64,000 nt of DNA from Verrucomicrobiota bacterium. GTDB lineage: Bacteria > Verrucomicrobiota > Verrucomicrobiia > Limisphaerales > UBA11358. How positions within the stretch are numbered: position 1 is the first letter of the stretch; the number at the start of each line of letters is the position of its first letter. This document shows positions 12,522 through 29,560 of the stretch, piece by piece. Location: assembly GCA_049511835.1 (NCBI GenBank), contig JBEKXN010000004.1:81231-145230 (forward strand), written 5' to 3'. Made by a program: the position numbers and the translations under genes. A model generated the notes under the pieces. It was not told the origin of the DNA. It did not search any database and saw only the letters and a list, made by a program, of their open reading frames with translations.

Positions 12522-12729
12522 ATCATTGGCTTTCCAATGAGTCTTATGGCTTTTAGCGGCATCATTCCATTAAGTCAAGGAATAATTGCGTGTGATGGTC
12601 GGAAACGCGCACTCCCGTCACAGTGTTTTCGAGGCGGACGGCCGGGTAATTTGTCGCGACTTTGAAACGCGGGGCATCCTGAAATCGCTTTTCGCATTTG
12701 TACCGCCCAATTACTCTTCTGGAGAACTG

Positions 12730-12828
12730 ATGAACATTTCCATCATTCTCGCCCACGTGAATCCGGGCGGTTTCAATCATGCCATCGCCAACAGGGCGGC
12801 GGAAACGGCGCACTCGGCGGAGAATTGA
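12730..12828 (+). pseudogene. 5' fragment of a flavodoxin-like NAD(P)H dehydrogenase paralogue (copy of 28964..) fused to an ETF-QO-like tail
   Basis: MNISIILAHVNPGGFNHAIAN matches MNISIILAHPNPGSFNHAIAN at 28964. It then reads ...AHSAEN-stop, using the 17-nt gcactcggcggagaatt that also ends the ETF-QO gene. Confidence 0.7.
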
Positions 12829-12845
12829 ACAACCACGGTTAAGCG

Positions 12846-15530
12846 TCACGTTGTTTGCGGGATTTCAGCATGGTCTTCGGCCAGACGTTTGAGGACGCTT
12901 ACGCGGCCGCGGTTTCCATCCACCTGCACCAGGTCGCCCGTGTGAATGACCCGCGTGGCCGAAGCCACGTTGGTCACCGCCGGAAGACCGTATTCGCGCG
13001 CGACGATGCTGCCGTGCGAGAGAATCCCGCCTTGTTCCATGACCACGCCGGCGGCAGTGATGAAATACGGCGACCACGCCGGATCGGTGAACGGGGCGAT
13101 GAGAATTTCGCCGGGGAGAACCTGCTGGTGCTCATCCGTGCGCAAAATCACGCGGGCGGGGCCGGTGACAATGCCGGGAGAAACCGGAATGCCTTCCAGA
13201 AGTTTCGCGCCGACGTTCGCCACCGGCCAGCCGGGCGCGTTTGGATCGAATCTTCCGATCACAACCGGCGGCGGGGTGAGCTTCAGGTTCTTTTCGTATT
13301 CCCGCCGGCGCAATTCGATGCGTTCGCGCCAATCGAACGAAGCGCTGCCCATCGCGACCGGTTCAATCTCGGAAATTTCCAGGAAGAAAATGTCATCGCG
13401 GCCGGACAAGCTGCCCTGCTCGTGGAGCCGCTGGCCGAGGGCCAGGAGAACGCGGCGCACGAAGGCAATCCGCCGGACGCCGAGGTTCTTCAAATGCTCC
13501 CGGAAGACGGCCAGTTCCTGCGCGCGGCGCAGCGAGCGCGAGAATATCCAGCGTTTGATTGGATTCTTCAGCCGCGCGCGGCATTGGACGGTCAAGCGTT
13601 CCCGTTCGTCCGCCAGCCGCCGTTGATTTTCCAGCGGGTTGGACTGGCCCAGCGAGCGAAGATAGCCGCGCACCAACCCCAGGATATAATCGGGGGTCTC
13701 GCTCCAACGGGCGTTGGACAGCTCCAGTTCGCCGCGGCAATGATGTCCGTGCTCGGCCATGAAGGCATCCCAGACGGCCAGGAATTTCCGGCCGTGTTCG
13801 GTGCAGCCAAGCCTGGCGCGGACCTCCGGCCAATTGTTTTCGGAAGACACAACGCCCTCTGTGTCGCTGTCGGCGTGGGCAAGTGCCGCCAGTCGCCAAA
13901 GAGCCAGGCCAGCTTCCGCGACCGGCAGGCCGCCCAACGCGGCAAACAAGCGCAGCGACACGCCGGGTTCGCCCAGCCAATTGCGGCAAACTTTCTGAAA
14001 CACCGGAAGCACCCCCGCCTGCACCGCCAGGTAGAGAACATCCGCGTCCTTGAAAACTTCCCGTACGTACTGACCGCAAAGCCGGGTCAGCTCCGGCGTG
14101 GACAGGGCTTCGAGGTCCAGGCGGTCGAGTTCGTCCGTTTGTTTCTTAAAGCGGGCCAGCCAGGCCCAGCCACGCCGGCGGGACGAGTGGGTGATGAGGT
14201 CGTAAGCGATGCGGGGCCAGGAGAGGATGTATTTCGGCCAGCGGAAACCCAGATCCGGAAGATCCTCCGGCGGGATGGACAACGGGGTCTGGTGGTAGGA
14301 CTCCACCAGGTCGCCTCCCAGTGTTCGGGTAAATTCAGGAAACCCCTTCCGCAGGAAAGCGAATGGTTTGACGGCGGCCACAAACGTGTTGGCGTTGAAG
14401 TAGAGCCGGCCGGCGACAAGATCCCCGACCAGCGAAACGCGCCGGATATCCGCGCCCACCAGACGAAAGATGGAACCGACCACCGTCAGCAAGGATTGCA
14501 GCATGGACCACGTCATCGGCGTCACCACGTCCGGCATCGCTTCACCCGTGTTGACGTTGGTCCAGATTTGCCGGTCCTCCCATGTTTTGACCGGAGCTTT
14601 GGTTGTGATCGGACGGGACTGCAACAGGAACAGTTTGCCATCCCACTGCGCCCACTCGATGTCCTGCGGCGAACCAAAGAGGCGTTCGGTCTGACGAGCC
14701 AGGTCGCACAGGTTTTTGAGAGTTGCGGACGAAAGCAACTCATTTTCGGGCGAAGCCAGCACGCGCCCCGTTCGCTTTTCAACCACCATCCGTTCGGGCT
14801 GAACTGTTCCCTGCACCAGTCCTTCGCCCAAACCGCTCACGCACTCCACGACGAACCGGTCCGTTGCTCCCGTCAGCGGATCGGCGGTGAACGCGACTCC
14901 GGCGTGGCCGGCCTCCACCATTTCCTGCACCACCACTGCCATCCTGGCCTTCTCCGCCGGCACCCGCTGCTTCGCCAGGTAAACGAGCGCCCGCTCGGAG
15001 AAAAGCGACAGCCAGCACGTCTTGATGGCAGCCAACAACGCGTCCTCTCCGCGCACATTCAGAATGGATTCAAACTGACCGGCAAAAGACATTCCGGCTG
15101 CGTCCTCGACGGTCGCGCTGGAACGCACGGCAAAGCTCCGTTCTTCACCCAGTTCCCGCCACGCGGACAGCACTGCATCCTTCACCATTTCCGGCACGGG
15201 AACCTCCGCCAGACAGAAGCGGACTTCCCGGCTCAGTTCAGCAATTTGCCCAAGTTCCTTGCCGGAACATTGCGCCAGCAGATGGGATAAATCAGTGCGC
15301 CTCGGACACGAAGCCAGGAAGAGATCGAACGCCGTCGTCGTGACACAAAAACCGCACGGCACCGGCTGACCCGCCGCGATCAATTTGCCCAGGTTAAACG
15401 CCTTGCCGCCCACCAGCGACCGGTGGTTGTCGCCAGTTTCCGCCAAGCGAAGCACGAACACAGCGGTTTTGTCTGTTGCCGCCAGCACCGCCATGCTCCC
15501 CTCAGAATGGGTTGAAGATATCTTTTTCAT
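12846..15530 (-). CDS. PEP-utilising phosphotransferase, three-domain PpsA/rifampicin-phosphotransferase-like architecture
   Basis: N-terminal ATP-grasp motif GGKAFNLGKLIAAGQPVPCGFCVTT. Long central domain. C-terminal swivel-His domain ...GGILSHGSIVAREYGLPAV. The start MKKISS at 15530 overlaps the upstream stop (ATGA). Confidence 0.75.
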   Translation of the reverse strand: MKKISSTHSEGSMAVLAATDKTAVFVLRLAETGDNHRSLVGGKAFNLGKLIAAGQPVPCGFCVTTTAFDLFLASCPRRTDLSHLLAQCSGKELGQIAELSREVRFCLAEVPVPEMVKDAVLSAWRELGEERSFAVRSSATVEDAAGMSFAGQFESILNVRGEDALLAAIKTCWLSLFSERALVYLAKQRVPAEKARMAVVVQEMVEAGHAGVAFTADPLTGATDRFVVECVSGLGEGLVQGTVQPERMVVEKRTGRVLASPENELLSSATLKNLCDLARQTERLFGSPQDIEWAQWDGKLFLLQSRPITTKAPVKTWEDRQIWTNVNTGEAMPDVVTPMTWSMLQSLLTVVGSIFRLVGADIRRVSLVGDLVAGRLYFNANTFVAAVKPFAFLRKGFPEFTRTLGGDLVESYHQTPLSIPPEDLPDLGFRWPKYILSWPRIAYDLITHSSRRRGWAWLARFKKQTDELDRLDLEALSTPELTRLCGQYVREVFKDADVLYLAVQAGVLPVFQKVCRNWLGEPGVSLRLFAALGGLPVAEAGLALWRLAALAHADSDTEGVVSSENNWPEVRARLGCTEHGRKFLAVWDAFMAEHGHHCRGELELSNARWSETPDYILGLVRGYLRSLGQSNPLENQRRLADERERLTVQCRARLKNPIKRWIFSRSLRRAQELAVFREHLKNLGVRRIAFVRRVLLALGQRLHEQGSLSGRDDIFFLEISEIEPVAMGSASFDWRERIELRRREYEKNLKLTPPPVVIGRFDPNAPGWPVANVGAKLLEGIPVSPGIVTGPARVILRTDEHQQVLPGEILIAPFTDPAWSPYFITAAGVVMEQGGILSHGSIVAREYGLPAVTNVASATRVIHTGDLVQVDGNRGRVSVLKRLAEDHAEIPQTT

Positions 15531-17695
15531 TTCACGGGCTGGAAGTCTTTGTGGCCCGTCTGCCACAGGAGGAATGCGTACTGGTCCGCGAAATTCTTGA
15601 AGGTGACAACCTTCTCCTCCGTGAAGTGGCCGTTGTCGTAGTTCACCTTCATCAGGACGGGCTTTCCCGAGGCCGTTGCCGCCTGCAAGGCAGCCACGAA
15701 CTTGCCAGGTTGCCAGGCTGGGCATCGGGGATCGTTCCAGCCACCCACACCCATAACCGCAGGGTAATTTACACCCTTCTGGACGTGCTGGACTCCGTCC
15801 ATCTCGAACAGAGCCTGGCACTCAACGGGATCTTTCACTGTGCCAAATTCCGGCGTGTCGCCCGCACCAAAGGGCCGGAACTCATGACGCATCGCATTCG
15901 CGACCCCGACATTGCAAACTGCGGCAGCAAATAAATCCGGGCGTTCCGTGATAGCACGGCAGATCAGGATTCCGCCAGCACTGGTGCCAGTAACTGCGAG
16001 CTTCCGGGGACTGGTATATCCCTTTTTCACAAGGTACTCCGCGCAGGAAATGAAGTCCTTCCATGTGTTCGGTTTGGTAGTCTTGTAGCCGGCTTTGTAC
16101 CAAGCCCCGCCCTTTTCGCCGCCGCCCCTTACGTGCGCAAAAGCAAACACCACACCTCGGGCTGCCAGTAAGTTAACGCGAATGTTGAAGTAGGGGGTAT
16201 AACTAAACCCGTAAGCGCCATAGCCAGTAAGGATGCAGCTGTTTGACCCATCCAACGGAATACCCTTCTTGTAAATGATGGAGAGCGGAATCATTGTGCC
16301 ATCGTGCCCGGGCACTTCAACTTCTTTGGAGACTAGGTTCTCGAAGCCTGGATACGACATGTCCGTGTTGAAAATGCTCTTCGCGAAGGTGTCCTTCTGC
16401 GCATCAAAATCATAGATCGTCAGGGGTGAAGTCCAGGAGGTGATATACACCAGACAACGATCCGTTTTCCAATCCGGACAACTGACGTCCACGGTCCCGG
16501 ACGCCGGAAGTTTGATTTCTGCGATCTTGCCGGTGGTTAGGTCGTATTTGATGAGACGGCCTACAATCCCATCTGAATAAACGACGAGGAGATAGTGCTT
16601 GCTCTTGGTAATGGATTGGATGGAGTCAGCCCCCTCGGGAATCACGGTCTCGGCGTGTTCCCAGTCAGGGTGCTTCACGCTCGTCCGAACAACCTTATAC
16701 TTTGGCGCACCTGCATGGGTGACGGCGTAAACGTAATCCCCGTAGAATTCAAACCCTCGATATTCAGACCCTCGATACACCAGATTATCTGAGGGTTTAC
16801 ACAGGACATCCCATTTGATTTTCTTGTGCTTCAGTTCGGAGGTGGGAGCATAGAAAATCCGCATCTCCCACTGCGAGGTCTCCACTCTCCCGATGATGTA
16901 GTCAGGGTAGGATTCATCAATGAAAGCAACGGGCCTCTCCTTTGCCGTGATCCCCAGTTCAGGGTTGCTCTCATCGCTGAAGATATCTCTGTCCATGGCA
17001 GTTTCGGTGCCAAGTTTATGCACTTTGGTTTTGCGGTTCAGTAGGACATCGGGGCTCTTGATGTCAGCGACCTTGCCGAAGTCATAGAAAAACGACTTGC
17101 TGTCCTTCGTCCACCCCAAGGCTGCAAAGGAGGGATAAATACGTTCGGGCAACAGCGTTCCCCGTTCCACGTCCAAAACACGGATTTCTGAATACTCAGC
17201 GCCACCCGAGGAAAACCCCATGGCGACGTATTTCCCGTCCCACGAGGGGAGGAAGGAATGGATGGTTGTTGTCACACCAGCCTTGTATGTAGCTGGATCG
17301 AAGAGCAGTTTTTCAGCACCATCCCATCCCTCGCGGAAGTAGAGCTTGCCCACGTTTTCGCCACCCAAAGTCTTCTTGTAAAAGACCCGGCCATTTTCAC
17401 ACATGATTGTCGAGTAAACCACAGGTTCGAGCTTGTCCAACGCCATCCATTCCTTCGCGAGGGCATCCCTGCCGGGAATCTTCGCCAGCAGGTCGTCGGT
17501 CAATTCCGCCTGAGCCTTGAACCAGGCTTCGACCTCCTTGTCTTTTAGGTCCTCCAACCAGCGGTAAGGATCGTTGTAAGTCTTCCCAAAGTAGGTGTCG
17601 GATGCATCGACGGTTTTTGTCGGCGGATAGTTCCACTGGGCAAAGCATGGCATGGCAGCCAAGACTGGGAGGACGAGGAAAAGAAATCTTTTCAT
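15527..17695 (-). CDS. prolyl oligopeptidase (S9A), secreted
   Basis: Signal peptide MKRFLFLVLPVLAAMPCFA. YFGKTYNDPYRWLED. GTSAGGIL is the GxSxG nucleophile motif. Confidence 0.85.
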   Translation of the reverse strand: MKRFLFLVLPVLAAMPCFAQWNYPPTKTVDASDTYFGKTYNDPYRWLEDLKDKEVEAWFKAQAELTDDLLAKIPGRDALAKEWMALDKLEPVVYSTIMCENGRVFYKKTLGGENVGKLYFREGWDGAEKLLFDPATYKAGVTTTIHSFLPSWDGKYVAMGFSSGGAEYSEIRVLDVERGTLLPERIYPSFAALGWTKDSKSFFYDFGKVADIKSPDVLLNRKTKVHKLGTETAMDRDIFSDESNPELGITAKERPVAFIDESYPDYIIGRVETSQWEMRIFYAPTSELKHKKIKWDVLCKPSDNLVYRGSEYRGFEFYGDYVYAVTHAGAPKYKVVRTSVKHPDWEHAETVIPEGADSIQSITKSKHYLLVVYSDGIVGRLIKYDLTTGKIAEIKLPASGTVDVSCPDWKTDRCLVYITSWTSPLTIYDFDAQKDTFAKSIFNTDMSYPGFENLVSKEVEVPGHDGTMIPLSIIYKKGIPLDGSNSCILTGYGAYGFSYTPYFNIRVNLLAARGVVFAFAHVRGGGEKGGAWYKAGYKTTKPNTWKDFISCAEYLVKKGYTSPRKLAVTGTSAGGILICRAITERPDLFAAAVCNVGVANAMRHEFRPFGAGDTPEFGTVKDPVECQALFEMDGVQHVQKGVNYPAVMGVGGWNDPRCPAWQPGKFVAALQAATASGKPVLMKVNYDNGHFTEEKVVTFKNFADQYAFLLWQTGHKDFQPVK

Positions 17696-17811
17696 AATGG
17701 GAAGCTCCAATGAATTATTGATCGGAATGTGCTTTTAATGTTCCGCGAACATGGGTGATTCGGTCTGGTTAACAGGAAGGTAAAACAAATGATGCGGATG
17801 GTAGTTTTCAT
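17692..17811 (-). pseudogene. 39-codon remnant of a fourth hydrolase paralogue (signal-peptide stub), bridging two cistrons
   Basis: MKTTIRIICFTFLL matches the paralogue N-termini MKTAIRAICFTLLL and MTTAIRVLCFMILL, then diverges. ATGA overlaps at both ends. Confidence 0.5.
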
Positions 17812-19583
17812 TTTAGTTTCTTTCCCTCGTGATTTAACCCCGTAATACTGCGGACTACCGCCGTCACTTCTCCCTGGCCATTCTTGATGAAGGTGTATCG
17901 CATGTGATTGATCTTGCAGAAAAAGTTCGTTTCCGATTCGGGATACATATCGAAGGCGCCCTCGAGAACGTTCTCGCCCCAGGCTTGCCCGAACAACTGG
18001 TCTCCCTGCCGCCAGATCGTCAGTTTGATTCCCGTGGGATACGCGGCGTCCGGCGCGACTTCGTAATGGCCGACACAGGCGTCAAGAAGTTTTGGGGCCA
18101 GCTTGATGGCAACAGGCCGTTTCAGCGGTTCGGGGGCTTTGGGCGGCTGATCGGAGATTTTCTCATAATAAAACTCTCTGCCCTGGAAGTGCACGGTTAA
18201 GCCGGTCACCTTGCCTCGTGTATCCCGGGAAAAGGTCATGGGTATGCCGCTCAACCTTTCAAAAAAACGATTTTCCGATTCCGGCAATAATTCGATGGTG
18301 AGAGGCGGTAATAATACATCAACCGGCCACGATCTTGATCCTGTGGCCTGGGCGAAGAGCCGGTCCCCTTCACGGCAAATACCGATGCCGGATGGGATCA
18401 TATTACTCGACACGAGCGCAACATCAGGTGGACGCTGGTATTGTCCGAGATACGAACCATAAACTTTGTTGCTGATTTTGGTTTCCTTGGGCCGATGGTC
18501 CGACTGCCATTCGCTTTCGAGTAACAAGAGGCCCAAGCCGTAAACGACATCCCAATCTTCCGTGTTAGCCAAGACCACCACGCCGCGCCGCCGGGCCTTG
18601 TCGAAACCGATGAACGTGCGAAAACCGCCCGTACCTCCGGTTTTCCAGATGATTTGTGTCCCATGCAGGTCGGAAATATACCAAGCCAACCCAATGTCAG
18701 TGTCCGGCTCTAAACGAAAGTGCGCGACCTGTGTTTTTTCCATGAGCGGTGTCAGAGTGGATGGCGTCAGGCCGAGGTTGGCAGACACGTATTTGAGCTG
18801 GTCATGGGCCGTCGAGCACAGCGCACCACAGCCCGCCAAGACCCCAAATTCCATAACCGGGACCGCGTAGTTGAGTTCAGAGTGTCCCTGTGCAAACCGC
18901 GCTTTCATTCCGGGCGTCAAAGTGATCCGCGTGCTGTCCATCTTTAGTGGCCGGCAAATCCGATCCACCACGAGCGACTCGTAGTTCGTCCCGGCTTTCA
19001 GCGCAATGACATGACCGAGCAATCCCATTCCTAGGTTGGAATATTGATATTTCGCGCCCGGATCACGGGTCAATCTGTAGCCGGACAGGAAGGCATACAA
19101 CTTTTCGACGGAATAATCAGCATAGGGGCTATCCGCGCTTTTGGTGTCAACGTTGTCAGGATTGTCTGGCAGCCCGGAGGTGTGCGTCGCCAGTTGAAGC
19201 AAGGTGATTTCCTTGCCGTTGCGGGTTGGCATCCTGACCGACTTGGGCAAATACCTGGCCACGGGATCATCCAGCTTCATCTCCCCGCGCTCAATCATGT
19301 CTTGCAGCAACAGCGCGGTAAATGTCTTCGTGACCGAACCGATCTCAAACACGGTACTGCCATTCACTGCCTGATCGGTCCCGTTATCCAGTTTTCCGCA
19401 ACTGACAATGCTGCTGCCATGCTCGTCCACAATGCCGACCACTATGCCGACGTCACGCTTTTCAAGCTCGACGCGCTGTTGCAGGTAAGCGTGGATGGCA
19501 TTGGTGAAATCCTCCGCCGCAGCACGGAATGAAGATGCCGATAACAATATCATGAAACAAAGGACTCGGATGGCAGTGGTCAT
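17808..19583 (-). CDS. beta-lactamase-fold serine hydrolase (class C/EstB-like) with two C-terminal DUF3471-like modules
   Basis: Signal peptide. The SVTK (SxxK), YSN and KTG motifs are all present. C-terminal module LDACVGHYEVAP...LTIWRQGDQLFGQ...PESETNFF...GEVTAVV. Confidence 0.8.
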   Translation of the reverse strand: MTTAIRVLCFMILLSASSFRAAAEDFTNAIHAYLQQRVELEKRDVGIVVGIVDEHGSSIVSCGKLDNGTDQAVNGSTVFEIGSVTKTFTALLLQDMIERGEMKLDDPVARYLPKSVRMPTRNGKEITLLQLATHTSGLPDNPDNVDTKSADSPYADYSVEKLYAFLSGYRLTRDPGAKYQYSNLGMGLLGHVIALKAGTNYESLVVDRICRPLKMDSTRITLTPGMKARFAQGHSELNYAVPVMEFGVLAGCGALCSTAHDQLKYVSANLGLTPSTLTPLMEKTQVAHFRLEPDTDIGLAWYISDLHGTQIIWKTGGTGGFRTFIGFDKARRRGVVVLANTEDWDVVYGLGLLLLESEWQSDHRPKETKISNKVYGSYLGQYQRPPDVALVSSNMIPSGIGICREGDRLFAQATGSRSWPVDVLLPPLTIELLPESENRFFERLSGIPMTFSRDTRGKVTGLTVHFQGREFYYEKISDQPPKAPEPLKRPVAIKLAPKLLDACVGHYEVAPDAAYPTGIKLTIWRQGDQLFGQAWGENVLEGAFDMYPESETNFFCKINHMRYTFIKNGQGEVTAVVRSITGLNHEGKKLK

Positions 19584-20791
19584 TTTAGTTTCTTTCCCTC
19601 GCTATCCGGAACCCCCGCTTGAGAGGAATGGTGGATGACAGCCGTCACTTCTCCCTTGTCATTCTTGATGAAGGTCAATTGCGCGCCATCGATTTTGAGG
19701 AAGAAATTCGTTTCCGATTCGGGATAAATATGAAACGCACCTTTGAGGGTGTTCTCGCCCCAGACTTGTCCGACCAACTGATCTCCTTCCCGCCAGATCG
19801 TCACCTTCCCTACAGTGGGAGACATGGCGTTCGGCGCAAATTCGTAGTGCCCGACACAGGCATCAAGAAGTTTTGCGTCCAGCTTGATGGCAACATGCGA
19901 TTTGGCTGGTGCAGAATCCGGGACGCTGGCACTGGCCGGGAGTGGCACTTTCGGTTCTTTGCCCAGATAGCCGATGCGGCACAGAAACTCATCAACCTCC
20001 TCCGTTGTTATTCCCAGCCAGGGCGGCTGATTGAAGAAGCCGTGCGATTCCCCTTCTGTGAAGCAGGCCTCGACCGGTGCGCCCAGGGATTTGCTCTTCT
20101 GGACAAACTCGCGGATCTCATAGTTAAACTGATCTTCCGTGCCATCGATGAACAATGTGGGAGGCGCTTTTTTGCAGACATGAAAGAAAGGGGAAATCCG
20201 CTTCAGCATCGCGTCGTCCATGCCGGTGAGGGGGTTGTCGGCACCACCGCCGCGCAACGCGATCAGGTTCAGGTCGGGGTTGTAGAGAACCATCGCATTG
20301 GGCTTGGGAGAGACGGATTTGTCGTCGTCCGGAGCGTTGATCCCCTCGGCGAAAAAGGTGCAGGCCGCGAGATGCCCCCCTGCCGAACCGCCCGAAGCCA
20401 CGATACGGTTGGGATCGATGCCGAGCTGGGCAGCATGGCTGCGGACCCAGCGCATGGCGCTGATGGCGTCTTCGACGCATTTGTCGAGCTTGACGCCGTC
20501 CTTGGCGTGGGTACGGCGATCGGCACGGGCACAGACCAAGCCACGCTTGGCGAAGTATTCGGCCTGAGGCTTGAACTGGTCAAGCGTGCCGCCTCCACCA
20601 GAAAAGAAAACAATGGCCGGGTGCTTATCGGCTGGCTTCCAGTCGGGCGGGTAGTCGAGGTCGAGCGTCAGCTTCCGTTCGCCGACGGTCTTATAGACAT
20701 ATTGCGCCTGTGGTTTGGCCTCCGCCGAAGCGCGAAAGGAAAACGCCGATAACAGTATCGTGAAACAAATTACTCGGACGGCAGTGGTCAT
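19580..20791 (-). CDS. alpha/beta-hydrolase (esterase/lipase-type) fused to one DUF3471-like module
   Basis: The signal peptide resembles those of the neighbours. IVFFSGGGG oxyanion region and GGSAGGHLA nucleophile elbow. The C-terminal module resembles those of the flanking genes. Confidence 0.75.
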   Translation of the reverse strand: MTTAVRVICFTILLSAFSFRASAEAKPQAQYVYKTVGERKLTLDLDYPPDWKPADKHPAIVFFSGGGGTLDQFKPQAEYFAKRGLVCARADRRTHAKDGVKLDKCVEDAISAMRWVRSHAAQLGIDPNRIVASGGSAGGHLAACTFFAEGINAPDDDKSVSPKPNAMVLYNPDLNLIALRGGGADNPLTGMDDAMLKRISPFFHVCKKAPPTLFIDGTEDQFNYEIREFVQKSKSLGAPVEACFTEGESHGFFNQPPWLGITTEEVDEFLCRIGYLGKEPKVPLPASASVPDSAPAKSHVAIKLDAKLLDACVGHYEFAPNAMSPTVGKVTIWREGDQLVGQVWGENTLKGAFHIYPESETNFFLKIDGAQLTFIKNDKGEVTAVIHHSSQAGVPDSEGKKLK

Positions 20792-22758
20792 TTTAGTTTC
20801 TTTCCCTCGAGATCTGGAAACCCCGCTCCATGGTCGATCGCCGCCGTCACTTCTCCTTCTTTATTCTTGATGAAGATGAATTGCTCATCAGCGATTTTGA
20901 GGAAGAAATTCGTTTCCGATTCGGGATAAATATCGAAAGCGCCTTGGCCGACGTTCTTGCCCCAGCATTGCGAGACCAACTGATCTTCTTCCCGCCGGAT
21001 CGTCAGTTTCATTCCAGTGGGAAACATGGCGTTCGGCGCAAATTCGTAGTGGCCGACGACGGCATCAAGAAGTTTTGTGTCCAGCTTGATGAGGACGGGA
21101 CGTTTCGGTGGTTCGGGAGCTTTTGGTGGTTCATCGGAGATTTTCTCGTAAAAAAACACCTTCTCGCGGTAGTGCAGCGTCAAGCCGGTCACCTTGCCCC
21201 GGGCATCCCGGGAAAAGGTCATGGGCACGCCGCTCAACCTTTCAAAGAGACAGTTTTCCGATTCCGGCAACAATTCCGCCTGGACAAGCGGAAATAATAC
21301 ATCAATCGGATTTGATTGTGATCCCCACGCTTGCAAGAACCTCCAATCCTCAATCGGACATAAGTTCAATCCTGTGGCTTGGGCGAAGAGCCGATCCCCT
21401 TCGCGGTGAATGCCGATGCCGGGCTGAAAACGCGCGCAAAATACACGACTCGACACTAGAGCAAGGAGCGGGGCCAAAAGACCACAGACCAGGACCACGC
21501 AACCCAAGATGACCCATCGCTTGCGGAAACTGCCAGCACGCCAGAGGAGGATCACCAGCGCCGCGAGGCAGAAAGCCGCCGGGAGAAAGATGGCCGTTTT
21601 GGGAGCGTTGCGGAGATACTGCCGCATAACGAACATTCCCAGTGTAAAATCAGGTGACCGTCGGTATTGTCCTACATACGAACCGTAAACCTGACTGTTA
21701 ATGTTGGTCTTCGTTGGCCGTCGGTCCGATTGCCATTCGCTTTCAAGTAGAAGATTGCCCAACTCGCGCCCTGAATCGTCCGCAGTGGACAAGATTACCA
21801 CGCCGCGACGCCGCGTCTTGTCGAAACAGGCATACGATCTGCCGCCGAACCCCCCTCCGCCGGTATGGATCATTCCCTCTATCTCCGGAGCATAACTGAG
21901 GTTAGTCATGCTTTTTTCCATGAGCGGTGTCAGACCTGACGGAGTCAGGCCGAGGGCCGACACGAATTTCAGCAGGTCATTGGCTGTTGAGTGCAGCCCG
22001 GCAAAGGGTTTCATAGCTCCCCAATCCCAACTCGGTCTCGCATAGCCGAACTCATTGTGTTCGCTGGCGAGCCGAGATTTCAGTTCGCCAGTCAGAGTGA
22101 ACCGGGCGCTATCCATCTTCAATGGCCGGAAAATCCGGTCCACCATGAGAGATTCGAAATCCGTCCCGGCTTTCAGCGCCATGGCCTGGCTCAGCAATCC
22201 CAGGTCCACGCCGCCATGATAATGCTTCGTTCCCGGGTCATTGGTCAATTGGCAGCCGGACACGAAGGCATACATTTTCTCGACGGTAAAATCAGCAAAG
22301 GGATTATCCGCGCGTTTAGGGTCAAGTTTGCCAATTAAGTTTGGAAGCCCGGAGGTTTCCTTCACCAGGTGGCGCAAGGTGATTTCCTTGCCATGGTAGG
22401 TCGGCATTTTGACAGACTTGGGCAAATAGCCGGCCACGGGATCATCCAGCTTCATTTCTCCACGCTCAACCATGTCTAGCAGCAACAAGTGGGTAAATGT
22501 GCCTGTCGCGGAATGAACATTGAACAGTGTGTCGCCATTCGCTTCCCGGTCGGTGCCATTATCCAATTTCCCAAAACTGACAATGCTGCTGCCATGCTCG
22601 TCCACAATGCCGACCACGATGCAGCCGTTTATCTTTTCAGCCTCGACGCGCTGTTGCAGATACGCGTGGATGGCATTGGTGAAATCCTCCGCCGCAGCGC
22701 GAAAGGGAAACGCCGATAACAACAGCGTGAAACAAATGGCTCGGATGGCAGTTTTCAT
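20788..22758 (-). CDS. beta-lactamase-fold paralogue with degenerate catalytic motifs and an internal two-helix membrane insertion
   Basis: Collinear with 17808..19583, but SVTK becomes SATG, YSN becomes HGG and KTG becomes HTG. An extra hydrophobic segment, TAIFLPAAFCLAALVILLW...WVILGCVVLVCGLLAPLLALV, is present. Confidence 0.7.
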   Translation of the reverse strand: MKTAIRAICFTLLLSAFPFRAAAEDFTNAIHAYLQQRVEAEKINGCIVVGIVDEHGSSIVSFGKLDNGTDREANGDTLFNVHSATGTFTHLLLLDMVERGEMKLDDPVAGYLPKSVKMPTYHGKEITLRHLVKETSGLPNLIGKLDPKRADNPFADFTVEKMYAFVSGCQLTNDPGTKHYHGGVDLGLLSQAMALKAGTDFESLMVDRIFRPLKMDSARFTLTGELKSRLASEHNEFGYARPSWDWGAMKPFAGLHSTANDLLKFVSALGLTPSGLTPLMEKSMTNLSYAPEIEGMIHTGGGGFGGRSYACFDKTRRRGVVILSTADDSGRELGNLLLESEWQSDRRPTKTNINSQVYGSYVGQYRRSPDFTLGMFVMRQYLRNAPKTAIFLPAAFCLAALVILLWRAGSFRKRWVILGCVVLVCGLLAPLLALVSSRVFCARFQPGIGIHREGDRLFAQATGLNLCPIEDWRFLQAWGSQSNPIDVLFPLVQAELLPESENCLFERLSGVPMTFSRDARGKVTGLTLHYREKVFFYEKISDEPPKAPEPPKRPVLIKLDTKLLDAVVGHYEFAPNAMFPTGMKLTIRREEDQLVSQCWGKNVGQGAFDIYPESETNFFLKIADEQFIFIKNKEGEVTAAIDHGAGFPDLEGKKLK

Positions 22759-24668
22759 TTCAGTTTCTTTTCCTCGATTTCCTCCTTGGGTAGAGGGCCG
22801 GACAGCGTGACGCTCTGACCGATGGCCGGAATTTTGAAGGGTTGGTAGGGCTGGTAGCCTCGCGTTTGCCAGTCGAACCGGAGCCAGTGGAAATCGGGCG
22901 AATCCAGCGAGGTGTCGAACCGGAATGCAACGCGGGACGGCAAATCCGATGCATCCGATTCCAGGACTTCCACCGTGAGGCCGTCGAGGTCATACCGGTC
23001 GCCTTTTTTGCATCTGGGTCCGCCCACGAGCAGGTTTAAAGTCCTGCAGGCGTAGGCGCTATGGATCGGACCAACATTGTCGCAGAAGAATATGTCCGGC
23101 GCTTTGGATTGAATCACCAGCGTTTTGTCATCGGTCCGCTGGACGTCGAAGCTCGTGCCAGCCGGTACCAGCGCCCGCAAGGTCTTGGGCAGCGGCTGGT
23201 GGTGATACGCTTTGTAAGCAGGTGCATGAACCAACGCGAGCGGCAAGGCGTTGATAATGATCACATTTTCGTTCTCGATGTTTGGCCAATCACCGAGATC
23301 ACTGAGTAAGCACATCCGGTTGAAAAGGAGAGGGGCAACTTTAACTACTGCGACTCTTCCGGCGGCCGCTCCCGGAACATGCGCCAGAATCAGCAGCACG
23401 CAGGCAATCCATGCCGGGATTCGGTAGGCCAACGCTTTCGGCAACCGACTCGGCCGGGTGATCAGGCCGGCGACAAAACTGGCGATCAATCCATAAGCTC
23501 CGACGGCCACAAAGCCAAGGTTCTTGCTGACTGGCACTACCGTGGACGCAGGGATGGCCGCCAGCACCATGATCGCGAACCAGAACGCGGCCGTTTTGTC
23601 CCGGCGCACCCACGGGAGGAAAACCACCAAAGCCGCGACCACGGTCACGCAAAAAAGCGCCGCGACCCTCTGCCGCAATAGAGGATTGAGTGCGCACAAA
23701 ACATCCGGCGCCACGCCGGTAAGTTGGCCGCCAAGCAGAACCATCGCCCGGGGAATCAACACCCGCCCAAACTCAAGCGGATCGTTGGCAGGGTCAGTGT
23801 AAAGGCCCATCTGAAACACACCAAAGCCGGAAAGTGTATAGATGGTCCGCCACAGAACGATCACCAGAATCGCAGGCAAAATCGTCAGCGCCCGGTGGCG
23901 AAGAGAACCCGGCTCGCGCACCAGCGCATACGCGAAGATGAAGGCCAACGTGGAAGCTCCGCCTTCATCCGTGAGAAGCGAAAGCGCGAGGAACACGGCG
24001 GACAACACCAATCCGGAACGGGACTTTGCGGAACGCCATTGATGATGTTCATAAAGACACAGCAGGCCGAAGAATAATGATAGCATGAAGCCGCGGTTTG
24101 CGACGAACGCCACCGGGAAGTAGGTGTTGACATCGAGCAGGAACAACAGCGCCGCGAATCCCGCGACCCATCCCGCTCCCATCAGCTTCCGGTAAACAAT
24201 CGTGATGAGAAACACGATGGCCGCGAACCAGGCGATGTTGTGGGCGTGCATCAGCATGGGCGAGTCGGGAAAAAGCCGGTAATCAAGCCAGTGGGTGAAG
24301 GCGGCGAGCGGCCGCCAAAGGGCAAATCTGAAATTGTCCGGCGTCCACCACGGCAGCGTGCCGTAACTTTTCATCAACGCCATGCATTGCGGATCTCGGC
24401 TGAAGCCGAAAAGGTCGCAGAGCACGGTCCCGAGACTGCCGGAATCCGCAGGGTTGCCCGTCTCGTGCATTCGCGGCGGCAATTGGCTGGGCTTGAGTTC
24501 GACGGCCCGCTGCATCAGATCGTCCACCGCCAAGTCGATCTTCAAGGCGGGCAACATGACCAGTATCGCCCCAATTGCCAGAATCGCTGGAAGGTGGCGA
24601 TGCTCAAGAAGTTTTTTCAAGAACCCCAGCATCTTGGCTCCTATTCCATTCGTTTTCATCGTTTCCAT
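22755..24668 (-). CDS. polytopic inner-membrane protein with C-terminal soluble domain (possible GT-C/ArnT-PMT-like glycosyltransferase)
   Basis: More than 10 hydrophobic helices. An acidic DD pair lies in the first loop (KIDLAVDDLMQ). A soluble tail of roughly 200 aa follows. The family assignment is tentative. Confidence 0.35.
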   Translation of the reverse strand: METMKTNGIGAKMLGFLKKLLEHRHLPAILAIGAILVMLPALKIDLAVDDLMQRAVELKPSQLPPRMHETGNPADSGSLGTVLCDLFGFSRDPQCMALMKSYGTLPWWTPDNFRFALWRPLAAFTHWLDYRLFPDSPMLMHAHNIAWFAAIVFLITIVYRKLMGAGWVAGFAALLFLLDVNTYFPVAFVANRGFMLSLFFGLLCLYEHHQWRSAKSRSGLVLSAVFLALSLLTDEGGASTLAFIFAYALVREPGSLRHRALTILPAILVIVLWRTIYTLSGFGVFQMGLYTDPANDPLEFGRVLIPRAMVLLGGQLTGVAPDVLCALNPLLRQRVAALFCVTVVAALVVFLPWVRRDKTAAFWFAIMVLAAIPASTVVPVSKNLGFVAVGAYGLIASFVAGLITRPSRLPKALAYRIPAWIACVLLILAHVPGAAAGRVAVVKVAPLLFNRMCLLSDLGDWPNIENENVIIINALPLALVHAPAYKAYHHQPLPKTLRALVPAGTSFDVQRTDDKTLVIQSKAPDIFFCDNVGPIHSAYACRTLNLLVGGPRCKKGDRYDLDGLTVEVLESDASDLPSRVAFRFDTSLDSPDFHWLRFDWQTRGYQPYQPFKIPAIGQSVTLSGPLPKEEIEEKKLK

Positions 24669-24856
24669 TCGATTTGGTCAATAACCATTCCTGCCCTTCA
24701 GGAATAGACAAGGGAAATCAGAAAGCCTCACGCTTCGCGGGGTCGGTCAATGGAATCGTGCCATCCAACCAACACGGGTCATCATTTGCTGCGCCGATTG
24801 CGGAGTCCCACGAATCGTCCACGCGCAACACGCCAAAAAGCGGAAGCCGACGATAA

Positions 24857-24946
24857 TTGTCAGCAGGCACAGGCTGGACAATTCCCGGCGACCCGGACCA
24901 GACGAACATTGCCGGCAGGGGCGGCCTGCACTCGGCGGAGAACTAG
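24857..24946 (+). pseudogene. remnant copy of the ETF-QO 3' end
   Basis: Translates as ...PGDPDQTNIAGRGGLHSAEN-stop, compared with the ETF-QO tail LPDNPERTNIAFRAGTGGLHSAEN-stop. A 23-nt identical core lies at 24920-24942 and 10794-10816. Confidence 0.65.
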
Positions 24947-26766: not shown

Positions 26767-26882
26767 TTAATAGCCGGAGGTTGTGAACGGATCCCGGCAA
26801 CTGACAATTTTTGCGCTGCCGGCAGGTTTTAATCTTCTTCAACCCTGCGACCTTGCCTTTTTTTGCATATTTCGCCCGTCCT

Positions 26883-26938
26883 CCATAGCGGCATTGCGGA
26901 GGGTGGACGTGTTTGGCGGTTTGCCTTTGTCCGTCCGG
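26883..26938 (+). repeat. conserved upstream module, copy 1 (ends 55 nt before the uxuA ATG)
   Basis: ...gcggagggtggacgtgtttggcggtttgcctttgtccgtccgg is near-identical to 28862-28909. Confidence 0.6.
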
Positions 26939-26992
26939 GTTGAAAACATAAATTTGCCGAGCCGGCAAACTTGTGATTTTGTATGGACTGAG

Positions 26993-28832: not shown

Positions 28833-28861
28833 TCGGGAGCCAGCATCCGTCCTTCCTGGCG

Positions 28862-28909
28862 GCATAGCGGAGGGTGGACGTGTTTGGCGGCTTGCGTTTG
28901 TCCATCCGG
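28862..28909 (+). repeat. conserved upstream module, copy 2 (ends 55 nt before the ATG at 28964)
   Basis: catagcggagggtggacgtgtttggcggcttgcgtttgtccatccgg. Confidence 0.6.
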
Positions 28910-28963
28910 ACTGAAATCGCTTTTCGATCACGGCATTGGCCAATTACACTGCGCAACTAATTG

Positions 28964-29560
28964 ATGAATATTTCCATCATCCTTGCGCACCCGAATCCGG
29001 GCAGCTTCAACCACGCCATCGCCAACACGGCGGCGGACACGCTTCGCCGGAACGGCCATCAAGTCATCCTTCACGACCTCTGCCAGGAACAATTTCCACC
29101 GCTGCTTTCCGCGGCGGAACTCCGGAAGGACGCCAAGCTCGATCCGTTTGTGGCCCGGCACTGCAATGAAATCACCAAGGCCGACGGCATCATCATCGTG
29201 CATCCGAACTGGTGGGGCATGCCGCCGGCCATCCTCAAAGGCTGGATTGACCGTGTGCTCCGGCCCGAAGTGGCGTATCGCTTTATCGAAGGCGACAAGG
29301 GCGAAGGCGTGCCCGTCGGCTTGCTGAAAGCGAAGGCAGCGATTATTTTCAACACCGCTAACACGACTGAGGCGCGCGAGCGGAAAGTATTCGGTGACCC
29401 GCTGGAAACGCTCTGGGAAAATTGCGTGTTCGACTTGTGCGGTGTGAAGAACGTCCATCGCTGGACGTTCGCCGTGGTCGTCACCAGCACGCGACAGCAG
29501 CGAGCCAAATGGCTGGCTGAGGTGCGGGAGATTGTCGCCCAGCGCTTTCCCGTCGGATGA
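28964..29560 (+). CDS. flavodoxin-like fold NAD(P)H dehydrogenase (quinone) family protein
   Basis: MNISIILAHPNPGSFNHAIA and IIIVHPNWWGMPPAILKGWIDRV (Flavodoxin_2 pattern). Confidence 0.75.
   Translation: MNISIILAHPNPGSFNHAIANTAADTLRRNGHQVILHDLCQEQFPPLLSAAELRKDAKLDPFVARHCNEITKADGIIIVHPNWWGMPPAILKGWIDRVLRPEVAYRFIEGDKGEGVPVGLLKAKAAIIFNTANTTEARERKVFGDPLETLWENCVFDLCGVKNVHRWTFAVVVTSTRQQRAKWLAEVREIVAQRFPVG

What the first reader, a model, noticed from the sequence alone, without database searches (positions are those of the whole stretch)
12846..24668. Seven-cistron minus-strand block in which every junction is an ATGA stop/start overlap
Reading from 24668 down to 12846, every consecutive frame overlaps the next by ATGA. 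The overlaps lie at 22755-22758, 20788-20791, 19580-19583, 17808-17811, 17692-17695 and 15527-15530. In order, the products are: a polytopic membrane protein; a beta-lactamase-fold paralogue without catalytic motifs; an alpha/beta-hydrolase; an intact SxxK/YSN/KTG hydrolase; a 39-codon stub; a signal-peptide S9A prolyl oligopeptidase; and a cytoplasmic ATP-grasp + central domain + swivel-His enzyme with the domain order of rifampicin phosphotransferases. I know of no described system that combines these families. Coupling this tight implies fixed stoichiometry or strict co-expression. Possible roles are an envelope peptide- or xenobiotic-processing module or an antibiotic-inactivation island. 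By eye the block is also more AT-rich than its flanks, and it sits inside att-like repeats (see separate finding).
Basis: partly seen in the sequence, partly recalled or inferred. Interest (0 to 1): 0.8.

Follow-up and report, generated by a model that had tools for sequence, protein, structure and literature searches.

The report
Hydrolase gene cassettes inserted in operon
The "seven-gene system" is a strain-specific patchwork: an older two-gene pair (a membrane protein and a rifampicin-kinase-like enzyme) that was split when a 7.3-kb string of related secreted hydrolase genes inserted between them, and most of the ATGA overlaps are copies of one family junction.

Summary
All six ATGA stop/start overlaps and all domain calls are correct, but the overlaps are not six independent events. 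Four are copies of one repeated junction, formed by the family tail EGKKLK* and the start of the family signal peptide MKTAIR. One overlap involves a 39-codon relic rather than a gene.

Relatives with 79-90% identical proteins carry the first gene (g1, GT-C-like membrane protein) directly followed by the last gene (g7, RPH-type dikinase). Homology breaks at window positions 22793 and 15530. Genes 2-6 are therefore a 7,262-bp insert.

The same g1|g7 slot is occupied differently in other peat Verrucomicrobiota:
- empty;
- one beta-lactamase-fold gene;
- stub plus prolyl oligopeptidase;
- two beta-lactamase-fold genes plus a membrane protein.

The full seven-ORF order occurs only in the window's own population (at least 98.8% nucleotide identity).

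The cassettes belong to one family with a conserved signal peptide and a DUF3471 tail. Gene 3 is an esterase core placed between those two handles. Gene 2 belongs to a conserved non-canonical "SxTG/HGG" subfamily.

The g1..g7 module is flanked by copies of the ETF-QO gene's 3' end, and in other populations it sits in ICE-like contexts.

Verdict: a real mosaic, probably co-expressed operon in a variable island, not a dedicated seven-component system. Interest is moderate to low.

The parts
22755..24668 (-). g1: 637-aa polytopic membrane protein from a large family with no Pfam model, probably GT-C-fold. First gene of the ancestral g1-g7 pair. Its last ~12 codons (PKEEIEEKKLK*) belong to the junction repeat rather than to the native end (..SGPHR*).
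   Evidence: No Pfam hit even at E<=1. 504 homologues, mostly Verrucomicrobiota and Planctomycetota. 3,219 50%-cluster representatives at E<=1e-10. D49 and D50 are invariant. The AF2 model (pLDDT 61) has STT3, AftA, ArnT, PglB and PMT as top Foldseek hits. C-termini compared.
15531..22792 (-). 7,262-bp insert (genes 2-6) between g1 and g7. It replaces ~24 nt present in relatives (the last codons of g1 plus a short spacer).
   Evidence: blastn of the window against L002, L005 and L009 shows homology running 24762..22793 and then resuming at 15530..12844.
20788..22758 (-). g2: signal peptide, beta-lactamase fold with non-canonical motifs (SATG for SxxK, HGG for YSN, HTG for KTG), a DUF3471 domain interrupted by a two-helix membrane hairpin, then a second DUF3471 and the tail EGKKLK*.
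   Evidence: Pfam. Alignment A3. The same SxT[GCVS]/HGG state occurs in 19 of the 120 best g4 homologues and in L102 gene b. The hairpin is also present in L028, L105a, P0125 and P0130.
19580..20791 (-). g3: chimera of the family signal peptide, a BD-FAE/Abhydrolase_3 esterase core (GGSAGG) and the family DUF3471 tail.
   Evidence: Pfam. Only four full-length homologues exist (82-91% identity). They are stand-alone genes at other loci and carry the same signal peptide plus EDFTNA and the tail EGKKLK[DN]. More than 100 other hits are ~300-aa esterases without DUF3471.
17808..19583 (-). g4: signal peptide, class C-like serine hydrolase with intact SVTK / YSN / KTG, two DUF3471 domains, no membrane hairpin.
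   Evidence: Pfam Beta-lactamase 207 bits. Best PDB matches are AmpC-type enzymes, 119 bits. AmpH scores 166 against a cut-off of 266, and bla_class_C 152 against 415. Alignment.
17692..17811 (-). 39-codon stub: remnant of the 5' end of a beta-lactamase-family gene fused to the POP upstream region. Not a gene in its own right, though possibly still translated as a coupling leader.
   Evidence: Not called by the ENA or JGI gene callers.
15527..17695 (-). g6: secreted S9A prolyl oligopeptidase with its own signal peptide and a GGAG about 10 nt upstream of its ATG.
   Evidence: Pfam Peptidase_S9_N 197 bits plus Peptidase_S9 163 bits. The same stub-POP-g7 arrangement occurs in L103, at 82-85% amino-acid identity; L104, a short contig, shows g1-stub-POP.
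12846..15530 (-). g7: cytoplasmic RPH-type ATP-dependent dikinase (ATP-grasp, central substrate-binding domain, C-terminal swivel His839). Second gene of the ancestral pair.
   Evidence: Pfam. PDB 5HV1/5FBS 334 bits. His839 aligns with His825, and FREH aligns with Arg666/Glu667 (PMC4844700). All NCBIfam scores are below cut-off. Start codon analysis.
17770..17833 (-). Junction repeat copy 4 (g4 end / stub start). The other copies are at 19542-19605, 20750-20813 and 22717-22780.
   Evidence: the repeat finder family D4/D7, 78-81% identity. Alignment. The 17-mer is found 4 times against 0.21 expected.
12725..12828 (+). Scar just downstream of g7: the first 83 nt of the Flavodoxin_2 gene (intact copy at 28964-29560), fused to the last ~20 nt of the ETF-QO gene (..HSAEN*).
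   Evidence: (D11).
24880..24946 (+). Scar upstream of g1: a copy of the last ~65 nt of the ETF-QO gene (..TNIAGRGGLHSAEN*). The true gene end is at 10820.
   Evidence: (D18). Equivalent copies bracket the g1..g7 module in L002, L005, L028 and L103.

Best explanation
The block is a lineage-specific mosaic operon, not a dedicated seven-protein system.

Its frame is a two-gene module. g1 is a GT-C-like polytopic membrane protein. g7 is an RPH-type ATP-dependent small-molecule dikinase. In this group of peat Verrucomicrobiota the module sits beside the ETF-QO gene, bracketed by copies of that gene's 3' end. In other populations the same module lies in ICE-like contexts.

The short g1|g7 junction has become a slot for promoter-less cassettes encoding exported serine hydrolases. 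Most cassettes belong to one family with conserved coding 'handles':
- a 5' handle encoding the signal peptide M(K/T)TAIRxICFTxLLSAFxFRAAAEDFTNA;
- a 3' handle encoding DUF3471 and ending EGKKLK*.

Where family members lie head to tail, the tail's last codons and the next signal peptide's ATG-A form the ATGA overlap. Each new cassette therefore copies the same overlap.

Recombination within or just after these handles best explains:
- the variable occupancy of the slot among strains;
- the esterase chimera g3;
- the stubs left in front of foreign genes (POP here, a membrane protein in L105).

Inferred working:
- One transcript starts upstream of g1.
- The overlaps allow ribosome re-initiation, so the cassettes are expressed without promoters of their own.
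- g2, g3, g4 and POP are exported by Sec to the periplasm, and g2 is held in the membrane by its hairpin. There they process peptides or esters.
- g7 stays cytoplasmic and phosphorylates an unknown hydroxylated small molecule through phospho-His839.

Shown here: anatomy, insertion breakpoints, alternative slot states, family relationships and motif states. Inferred: co-transcription, translational coupling, export, substrates and the recombination mechanism.
For: - Breakpoints lie at 22793 and 15530 against three independent relatives in which g1 is followed by g7 after 16-52 nt.
- Alternative states of the slot: L028 has g1, one intact 661-aa beta-lactamase-fold gene with hairpin and DUF3471, then g7. 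L103 has g1, a 69-aa stub, POP and g7; L104, a short contig, shows g1-stub-POP. L105 has two beta-lactamase-fold genes, a stub, a 235-aa membrane protein and g7 in an ICE-like context.
- The full order is found only in L015, L016, L100, L101 and L106, at 98.8-100% identity, from several samples. It is therefore real and not an assembly artefact.
- Junction repeat.
- The handles are conserved family-wide, including in dispersed stand-alone genes.
- g3 chimera.
- The stub is a 5' handle fused to the POP upstream region, with an in-frame 90-nt deletion.
- ATGA overlaps also join family members in L102 and L105.
- ETF-QO tail copies bracket the module in five lineages.
- ICE-like context with TrwC relaxase and integrase.
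- g7 catalytic residues.
- g1 is GT-C-like.
Against: - No expression data exist. Co-transcription and coupling are inferred from spacing only, and the promoter/terminator scan is uninformative (7 against 5.5 expected; 19 against 17.5 expected).
- The left edge of the insert is not certain. A g1 paralogue in L022 also ends ..EDIELKKLKDE, yet is followed by another g1 copy. The KKLK tail may therefore predate the insert or be a scar of a lost one.
- The g1-g7 link holds only in a subclade. Only 2 of the 80 GTDB loci with a g1 homologue have a g7 homologue within 6 kb.
- The GT-C assignment rests on a low-confidence model (pLDDT 61, TM 0.27-0.40).
- Nucleotide identity in the junction (73-87%) is no higher than in the adjacent DUF3471 coding sequence (77-83%). 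Nothing marks the junction as a dedicated recombination site.
Confidence: 0.72

Rival explanations
1. One reading: a dedicated seven-component envelope peptide- or xenobiotic-processing module, or an antibiotic-inactivation island. Its parts would need fixed stoichiometry, which the ATGA coupling would enforce.
For: - The overlaps are uninterrupted.
- The families echo resistance functions: g4 is class C-like, g7 is RPH-like with intact catalytic residues, and g1 resembles ArnT-type GT-C enzymes.
- The g1-g7 module is mobile.
Against: - Gene content between g1 and g7 differs in every lineage examined.
- One 'cistron' is a relic.
- The first overlap is lost in L028 through a single base change.
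- All resistance-family scores are below the curated cut-offs.
- PADLOC finds nothing.
Confidence: 0.08
2. The array arose by recent tandem duplication and divergence of a single inserted cassette in place. It was not assembled from family members that had already diverged.
For: - A single-cassette state exists (L028) with the same left junction as the window.
- g2 and g4 are collinear paralogues at 77-78% nucleotide identity.
- The repeated handles favour unequal crossing-over.
Against: - g2 belongs to the SxTG/HGG subfamily, which is spread over many genomes, so its divergence from canonical g4-type genes predates this array.
- g3 has stand-alone orthologues at 82-91% identity at unrelated loci.
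- g4's best non-self homologues (65-76% identity) are dispersed genes.
- POP is unrelated to the family.
Confidence: 0.15
3. The cassettes form a hetero-oligomeric hydrolase particle through their shared DUF3471 domains, as in the CubicO peptidase Pab87. The non-canonical, membrane-anchored g2 would act as scaffold, and translational coupling would serve co-assembly.
For: - In Pab87 the C-terminal lipocalin domain drives octamer formation and closes the active site (PMC2651629).
- g2, g3 and g4 all carry DUF3471.
- The g2 subfamily is conserved rather than decaying.
- g2 has a membrane hairpin.
Against: - That DUF3471 equals the Pab87 lipocalin domain was not tested here. g4's catalytic domain matches AmpC-type enzymes best, not Pab87.
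- Family members also occur singly.
- Array composition varies between strains.
Confidence: 0.12
4. Assembly artefact: a chimeric metagenome contig joined at the repeated junctions.
For: Repeats of 64-380 nt at 73-87% identity lie at every junction.
Against: - The same order is recovered in independent assemblies from different samples: L015 at 100% over 21.5 kb, L016 at 99.99%, and L100, L101 and L106.
- The repeats are too diverged to collapse assemblies.
Confidence: 0.02

Closest known systems
Rifampin phosphotransferase RPH-Lm (PDB 5FBS/5HV1; PMC4844700) and the wider RPH-type dikinases (PigC/HapC/RedH ligases; HpeHI and MarK aromatic kinases, PMC12167813, PMC12624787)
   Same: g7 has the ATP-grasp domain, a large central domain and a C-terminal swivel phospho-His domain. 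His839 aligns with His825, and the FREH motif aligns with Arg666/Glu667. It matches RPH-Lm at 334 bits over both halves.
   Different: It scores below the RPH equivalog cut-off (433 against 999) and below every other NCBIfam model. The family phosphorylates very different substrates, so rifamycin cannot be assumed. It is paired with a membrane protein, which is not described for RPH.
Class C beta-lactamase / AmpH-type DD-peptidases, and CubicO peptidases (Pab87, PMC2651629)
   Same: g4 has the SxxK, YSN and KTG motifs and the class C-like fold. It is followed by DUF3471 domains, the arrangement JGI labels 'CubicO group peptidase'.
   Different: It scores below the AmpH and class C cut-offs. 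It has two DUF3471 copies, a conserved family signal peptide and the EGKKLK tail. g2 replaces the catalytic Lys, Tyr and Asn (SATG, HGG) and carries a membrane hairpin.
GT-C fold glycosyltransferases (ArnT, PglB/STT3, PMT, AftA)
   Same: g1 has about 12-13 transmembrane helices followed by a C-terminal beta-rich soluble domain. It has an invariant DD pair just after the first helix. GT-C enzymes dominate the Foldseek hits.
   Different: No sequence-level match to any Pfam GT-C family or PDB chain. The model confidence is low.
Promoter-less cassette arrays (integron cassettes) and handle-mediated module swapping (orphan toxin/immunity modules of Rhs/CDI loci). This comparison comes from my own knowledge.
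   Same: Strain-variable strings of genes sit in one slot, read from an upstream promoter, with conserved sequences at the cassette boundaries.
   Different: There is no integrase or attC-like structure here. The boundaries are coding sequence (signal peptide and DUF3471 tail). The breakpoints differ (about 25-30 codons in g3, and 31 and 41 codons in the two stubs). This fits general or illegitimate recombination rather than a site-specific mechanism.
Translationally coupled operons with ATGA overlaps (textbook; for example the trp operon)
   Same: Four-base stop/start overlaps occur between co-directional genes.
   Different: Nothing unusual apart from the run length, and duplication of one junction explains that.

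Membership tests
Rifamycin phosphotransferase (RPH; NCBIfam NF041857) | Domain order: ATP-grasp, central substrate-binding domain, C-terminal swivel His domain; no PEP/pyruvate TIM barrel | tested here: met
   PPDK_N at residues 38-312 and PEP-utilizers at 806-875, with no PF02896 hit. Alignment to 5HV1 covers residues 23-348 and 515-880.
Rifamycin phosphotransferase (RPH; NCBIfam NF041857) | Catalytic His825 and the Arg666/Glu667 phosphotransfer pair | tested here: met
   His839 in GGILSHGSIVAREYGLPAV, and FREH aligned to YREY (residues as in PMC4844700).
Rifamycin phosphotransferase (RPH; NCBIfam NF041857) | Score at or above the curated equivalog cut-off | tested here: not met
   432.9 bits against a cut-off of 999. 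NF000283 scores 305.8 against 1700.
Rifamycin phosphotransferase (RPH; NCBIfam NF041857) | Phosphorylates rifamycins and confers resistance | not testable with these tools
   Needs an enzyme assay or MIC measurement in a heterologous host.
PEP synthase PpsA (TIGR01418) | Central swivel His and a C-terminal PEP/pyruvate-binding TIM barrel; score at or above cut-off | tested here: not met
   319.8 bits against 739.75, matching only the N-terminal ATP-grasp. No TIM barrel domain. PDB PpsA scores (232 bits or less) are lower than the RPH score of 334.
Class C beta-lactamase / AmpH | SxxK, Y(S/A)N and KTG motifs (g4) | tested here: met
   SVTK, YSN and KTG in g4.
Class C beta-lactamase / AmpH | Score at or above the curated cut-off (g4) | tested here: not met
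   AmpH 166 against 266; bla_class_C 152 against 415.
Class C beta-lactamase / AmpH | Catalytic motifs in g2 | tested here: not met
   SATG (Lys to Gly), HGG in place of YSN, and HTG. The state is shared with 19 of the 120 best homologues.
CubicO-type peptidase (Pab87-like) | Penicillin-recognising domain followed by a C-terminal DUF3471 (lipocalin-like) domain | tested here: met
   DUF3471 scores 40.1 bits (g2), 41.0 (g4) and 30.7 (g3) against a cut-off of 29.3. That DUF3471 equals the Pab87 lipocalin domain was not checked.
CubicO-type peptidase (Pab87-like) | Octameric self-compartmentalising particle | not testable with these tools
   Needs biochemistry or structure determination.
Prolyl oligopeptidase S9A | N-terminal seven-bladed propeller followed by a C-terminal alpha/beta catalytic domain | tested here: met
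   Peptidase_S9_N at residues 24-436 (197 bits) and Peptidase_S9 at 502-714 (163 bits).
Prolyl oligopeptidase S9A | Ser-Asp-His catalytic triad | tested here: inconclusive
   The GTSAGG nucleophile elbow and a C-terminal NGH are visible in the sequence. They were not aligned to a reference enzyme.
GT-C glycosyltransferase (g1) | GT-C membrane fold | tested here: inconclusive
   Foldseek top hits are STT3, AftA, ArnT, PglB and PMT (E 4e-4 to 3e-2). However, TM scores are 0.27-0.40 and the model pLDDT is 61.
GT-C glycosyltransferase (g1) | Conserved acidic motif in the first extracytoplasmic loop | tested here: met
   D49 and D50 are invariant in 43 sequences. Their topology is assumed, not shown.
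GT-C glycosyltransferase (g1) | Match to a curated GT-C sequence family | tested here: not met
   No Pfam family at E<=1. No PDB sequence match with a single sequence or a profile.
Integron-type cassette array | IntI integrase, attI, and attC imperfect inverted repeats at cassette ends | tested here: not met
   No integrase among the products. No inverted repeats at the junctions. The junctions are coding sequence.
Integrated mobile element at a gene's 3' end | Direct repeats of the target gene's 3' end flanking the cargo | tested here: met
   ETF-QO tail copies at 12810 and 24928, plus the true end at 10802. The same bracketing occurs in L002, L005, L028 and L103.
Integrated mobile element at a gene's 3' end | Integrase or relaxase within the element | tested here: not met
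   None lies between 12829 and 24946 in the window. Related g1-g7 modules do sit next to a TrwC relaxase and a Phage_integrase gene (L009-L014).

The most novel reading that the evidence does not exclude
The conserved signal-peptide and DUF3471/EGKKLK coding 'handles' may act as a recombination-based cassette system. With it, these Verrucomicrobiota would swap catalytic cores (beta-lactamase-fold, esterase) and load whole genes into one translationally coupled expression slot between g1 and g7. The slot would be carried on a mobile module (GT-C-like transferase plus RPH-type kinase) that moves by ICE and integrates at the ETF-QO 3' end. The conserved non-canonical g2 subfamily (Ser kept, Lys lost, Tyr replaced by His) would be a functional scaffold or an enzyme with altered chemistry.
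Probability: 0.2. Interest if true: 0.55.

Novelty: new member of a known kind. Interest (0 to 1): 0.33.

Why it matters
The result corrects an attractive misreading. A long run of ATGA overlaps can arise by copying one family junction, so it does not by itself indicate a multi-subunit machine.

It also leaves four concrete leads:
- A strain-variable expression slot in abundant peat-bog Verrucomicrobiota that collects periplasmic hydrolases. This bears on peptide, ester or cell-wall turnover in peat carbon cycling.
- A large membrane-protein family with no Pfam model (about 3,200 50%-identity clusters), probably GT-C-like. In one subclade it travels with an RPH-type kinase and lies in ICE-like contexts.
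- A conserved beta-lactamase-fold subfamily that keeps the Ser but has lost the Lys and changed the Tyr to His.
- An RPH-type kinase of unknown substrate, in a habitat rich in phenolics, where related kinases act on lignin-derived aromatics.

Tried and rejected
- PADLOC scan of g1, g2, POP, g7 and the 552-aa neighbour: no defence-system match.
- Rfam at gathering threshold over 10-27 kb: nothing. The only tRNA is at 53.6 kb, so a tRNA att site is excluded.
- Sigma-70 promoter and terminator scan: counts at the shuffled expectation, so it does not bear on internal promoters.
- Sequence searches of g1 against Pfam (also at E<=1 for 43 family members) and PDB (single sequence and profile): no usable hit.
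- AF2 of g1 gave only pLDDT 61, so the GT-C call is tentative.
- Compositional island idea: the insert is mildly AT-richer (0.541) but within the window's range. Composition alone does not make it foreign.
- Integron-like or site-specific cassette capture: rejected. There are no inverted repeats or integrase, and the breakpoints differ.
- g1 and g7 as an obligatory pair: rejected. Only 2 of 80 GTDB loci have both genes within 6 kb.
- The 70-nt repeat at 26876/28847: no stable fold (z = +0.69).

Full report
OBSERVATION

On the minus strand the open frames are 24668-22755, 22758-20788, 20791-19580, 19583-17808, 17811-17692, 17695-15527 and 15530-12846. Each frame meets the next at an ATGA.

- g2: Beta-lactamase + DUF3471.
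- g3: BD-FAE/Abhydrolase_3 + DUF3471.
- g4: Beta-lactamase + two DUF3471 stretches.
- g6: Peptidase_S9_N + Peptidase_S9.
- g7: PPDK_N + PEP-utilizers, without the TIM barrel.
- g1: no family.

The overlaps are not independent. Junctions 1-4 are copies of one repeat...CGAGG(G/A)AAAGAAACT(A/G)AAATGA(AA/CC)ACTGCCATCCG...ATTTGTTT. It spans 64-109 nt at 73-87% identity. The core 17-mer occurs 4 times against 0.21 expected. The repeat encodes the C-terminal tail EGKKLK* of one protein and the start of the signal peptide M(K/T)TAIRxICFTxLLSAF of the next.

Four-base overlaps also occur elsewhere in the window, at 42896, 57325 and 37120.

WHAT THE BLOCK IS

The window is 100% identical over 21.5 kb to a 216-kb JGI peat metagenome contig (L015). 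The same order is found in four further contigs from other samples, at 98.8-100% identity. The arrangement is therefore real and not an assembly artefact.

Homologues of g1 are abundant in Verrucomicrobiota and Planctomycetota MAGs. In three sets of relatives, g1 is followed directly by a g7 homologue after 16-52 nt:
- L002-L004: g1 86% identical.
- L005-L007: g1 79% identical.
- L009-L014: g1 90% identical.

In L002 and L005 the surrounding genes are syntenic with the window: acyl-CoA dehydrogenase, ETF-QO, ETF, OYE, nitroreductase and Flavodoxin_2.

blastn places the breakpoints at window 22793 and 15530. Native g1 ends ..SVTLSGPHR*. In the window it continues ..SGPLPKEEIEEKKLK*. Homology resumes exactly at the ATG(A) that begins g7. 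Genes 2-6 are therefore a 7,262-bp insert in an older g1-g7 pair.

THE SLOT IS VARIABLE

A GTDB scan with the g1 profile and a metagenome scan with the junction motif recovered other occupancy states:
- L028: g1, one intact 661-aa beta-lactamase-fold gene (SITK, YSN, KSG; membrane hairpin; DUF3471), then g7. The left junction is the same as in the window except for one base (TAG instead of AAG). That change ends g1 three codons earlier and leaves an 8-nt spacer instead of the overlap.
- L103: g1(..EEKKLK*)-ATGA-69-codon stub-ATGA-POP-ATGA-g7. L104, a short contig, shows the g1-stub-POP part.
- L105: two beta-lactamase-fold genes joined by ATGA, a stub, a 235-aa membrane protein, then g7, followed by genes whose sizes and positions match the TrwC relaxase and integrase of L009-L014.
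- L102: two family members joined by ATGA at a locus with neither g1 nor g7.

Only sub-arrangements are.

THE 'FIFTH CISTRON'

The L103/L104 stub consists of the first ~125 nt of a g2-like gene (signal peptide plus EDFTNAIHAYLQQRVEAE) joined to ~80 nt of POP upstream sequence. The window's 39-codon stub is the same sequence minus an in-frame 90 nt. It is a relic of a truncated family member, and neither public gene caller annotated it.

Its frame stays open up to the POP ATGA in all three versions. This is compatible with a role as a coupling leader, but the three versions are not independent.

THE LAST JUNCTION

Two public gene callers start g7 33 nt downstream of the ATGA, at MAVLAATDK. In L002 that Met codon is ATC and in L028 it is GTG. 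The ATG inside ATGA/ATGG is the only start conserved in all five relatives, and the frame is open from it. The overlap with POP is therefore plausible.

THE CASSETTE FAMILY

g4 has more than 7,800 homologues, labelled by JGI as 'CubicO group peptidase'.

Alignment A3 shows that the signal peptide plus N-terminus and the tail EGKKLK(x)* are conserved across the family. This includes stand-alone genes at unrelated loci (P0123).

g4 keeps SVTK, YSN and KTG. Its best PDB matches are AmpC-type enzymes, but it scores below the AmpH and class C cut-offs.

g2 has SATG, HGG and HTG. This is not random decay. The same SxT[G/C/V/S] plus HGG state occurs in 19 of the 120 best homologues and in L102 gene b. 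g2 therefore belongs to a stable non-canonical subfamily.

g2's two-helix hairpin is shared with L028, L105a, P0125 and P0130. It has a positively charged connecting loop, RAGSFRKRW.

g3 is a chimera. Only four full-length homologues exist (82-91% identity). They are stand-alone genes elsewhere and carry the family signal peptide plus EDFTNA fused to an esterase core at KPQAQYVYK, with the family DUF3471 tail. More than 100 other hits are ~300-aa esterases lacking DUF3471.

Foreign sequence has thus been joined shortly after the 5' handle in at least three events: g3, the POP stub and the L105 stub. The positions differ (about 25-41 codons from the start). This argues for general or illegitimate recombination plus selection, not a site-specific mechanism.

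THE FRAME GENES

g7 aligns with RPH-Lm over both halves at 334 bits, against 232 bits or less for PEP synthases. His839 aligns with the catalytic His825, and FREH aligns with Arg666/Glu667. It is below every NCBIfam cut-off, including RPH (433 against 999).

RPH-type dikinases include prodiginine ligases and kinases for lignin-derived phenolics (PMC12167813). The substrate of g7 is therefore open.

g1 has no Pfam or PDB sequence match. Its family comprises 3,219 50%-identity clusters at E<=1e-10. D49 and D50 are invariant. A low-confidence AF2 model (pLDDT 61) retrieves almost only GT-C glycosyltransferases: STT3, AftA, ArnT, PglB and PMT, at E 4e-4 to 3e-2 and TM 0.27-0.40. I treat 'GT-C-like' as probable, not established.

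The g1-g7 link is confined to a subclade. Only 2 of 80 GTDB loci carry both genes within 6 kb, and the g7-linked copies cluster together in a g1 tree.

ISLAND CONTEXT

Copies of the last 17-174 nt of the ETF-QO gene (..LHSAEN*) bracket the g1..g7 module in the window, at 12810 and 24928, with the true gene end at 10802. The same bracketing is seen in L002, L005, L028 and L103. The copy next to g7 is fused to the first 83 nt of the Flavodoxin_2 gene.

In L009-L014 and L105, a g1-g7-(ABHD18-like hydrolase) module lies near genes for a TrwC relaxase and a tyrosine integrase, but without ETF-QO fragments.

Window g1 is closest to the ICE-associated copy L009 (92.5% nucleotide identity). Window g7 is closest to L105 and L005 (about 88%). 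This fits exchange of alleles by homologous recombination, with g1 and g7 acting as arms. Such exchange would also explain why occupied and empty slots are interleaved in the g1 tree.

HOW IT MOST LIKELY WORKS

All of this section is inferred.
- A promoter in the conserved 70-200 nt upstream of g1 drives one transcript.
- The ATGA overlaps allow re-initiation, so the promoter-less cassettes are expressed.
- g2, g3, g4 and POP are exported, and g2 is membrane-anchored. They act on peptides, esters or cell-wall fragments in the periplasm.
- g7 acts in the cytoplasm.

A hetero-oligomer formed through DUF3471, by analogy with Pab87, is possible. The variable composition of the array and the existence of solitary family members weaken that idea.

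CAVEATS

- There are no expression data.
- The promoter and terminator scans are uninformative.
- A g1 paralogue in L022 also ends ..KKLKDE, so the exact left edge of the insert is uncertain.
- The GT-C assignment is tentative.
- The origin of POP was not traced.

VERDICT

The sequence facts are correct, but the 'system' is a lineage-specific mosaic in a variable island. The phenomenon is ordinary in kind: a paralogue and cassette array with inherited overlaps. It has several modestly interesting side leads.

Noticed in passing
window 10802-10818, 12810-12826, 24928-24944; 12725-12807 vs 28959-29041: There are three copies of the ETF-QO gene's 3' end. A duplicated 5' fragment of the Flavodoxin_2 gene is fused to one of them. 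Equivalent scars bracket the g1..g7 module in L002, L005, L028 and L103. This suggests repeated integration or accretion at the ETF-QO 3' end.
   Followed up: partly
L009-L014 and L105 (e.g. L011 6351-17222): A g1-g7 module, plus an ABHD18-like hydrolase overlapping g7 by 4 nt, lies in an ICE-like context with a TrwC relaxase, a tyrosine integrase, RadC and an HTH regulator. This copy has the g1 most similar to the window's (90% amino-acid, 92.5% nucleotide identity).
   Followed up: partly
window 20788-22758 (g2); L102 2878-4650; P0141, P0142, P0148 and others: There is a conserved beta-lactamase-fold subfamily. In it the SxxK Lys is replaced by G, C, V or S, and YSN is replaced by HGG (Tyr to His), while the Ser is kept. 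It accounts for 19 of the 120 closest homologues of g4. It may be a pseudoenzyme or have altered catalytic chemistry.
   Followed up: partly
window 22755-24668 (g1 family): g1 belongs to a large family of ~630-aa membrane proteins, with 3,219 50%-identity clusters at E<=1e-10. The family is mainly in Verrucomicrobiota and Planctomycetota and has no Pfam model. Some genomes carry tandem copies (L020, L022).
   Followed up: partly
window 10863-12521 (-): A 552-aa protein has no Pfam match and is built from about eight tandem repeats of ~52 aa (141-171 nt spacing, 61-100% identity between copies). It starts MKTA.. and lies between two ETF-QO tail copies. A homologue (516 aa) occupies the same place in L005.
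   Followed up: no
window 26876-26945 and 28847-28916: A 70-nt direct repeat (87% identity; 24-nt exact core; none expected by chance) occurs twice. One copy lies in probable intergenic DNA upstream of the UxuA-like gene; the other lies between the SDR and Flavodoxin_2 genes. It has no stable RNA fold (z = +0.69).
   Followed up: partly
L022 4067-5977 / 5974-7935: A g1 paralogue ends ..PPPMEDIELKKLKDE, the same kind of tail as in the window. It overlaps a second g1 paralogue by 4 nt. The KKLK tail on g1 is therefore not tied to the presence of hydrolase cassettes.
   Followed up: no
L002 6396-9855 and 14622-16216: In the syntenic relative, the same ETF-QO/ETF interval also holds a DNA methylase/Vsr/DUF4928 set, a PIN toxin pair and a PA-IL-like lectin. 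The interval is a general hotspot for accessory genes.
   Followed up: no
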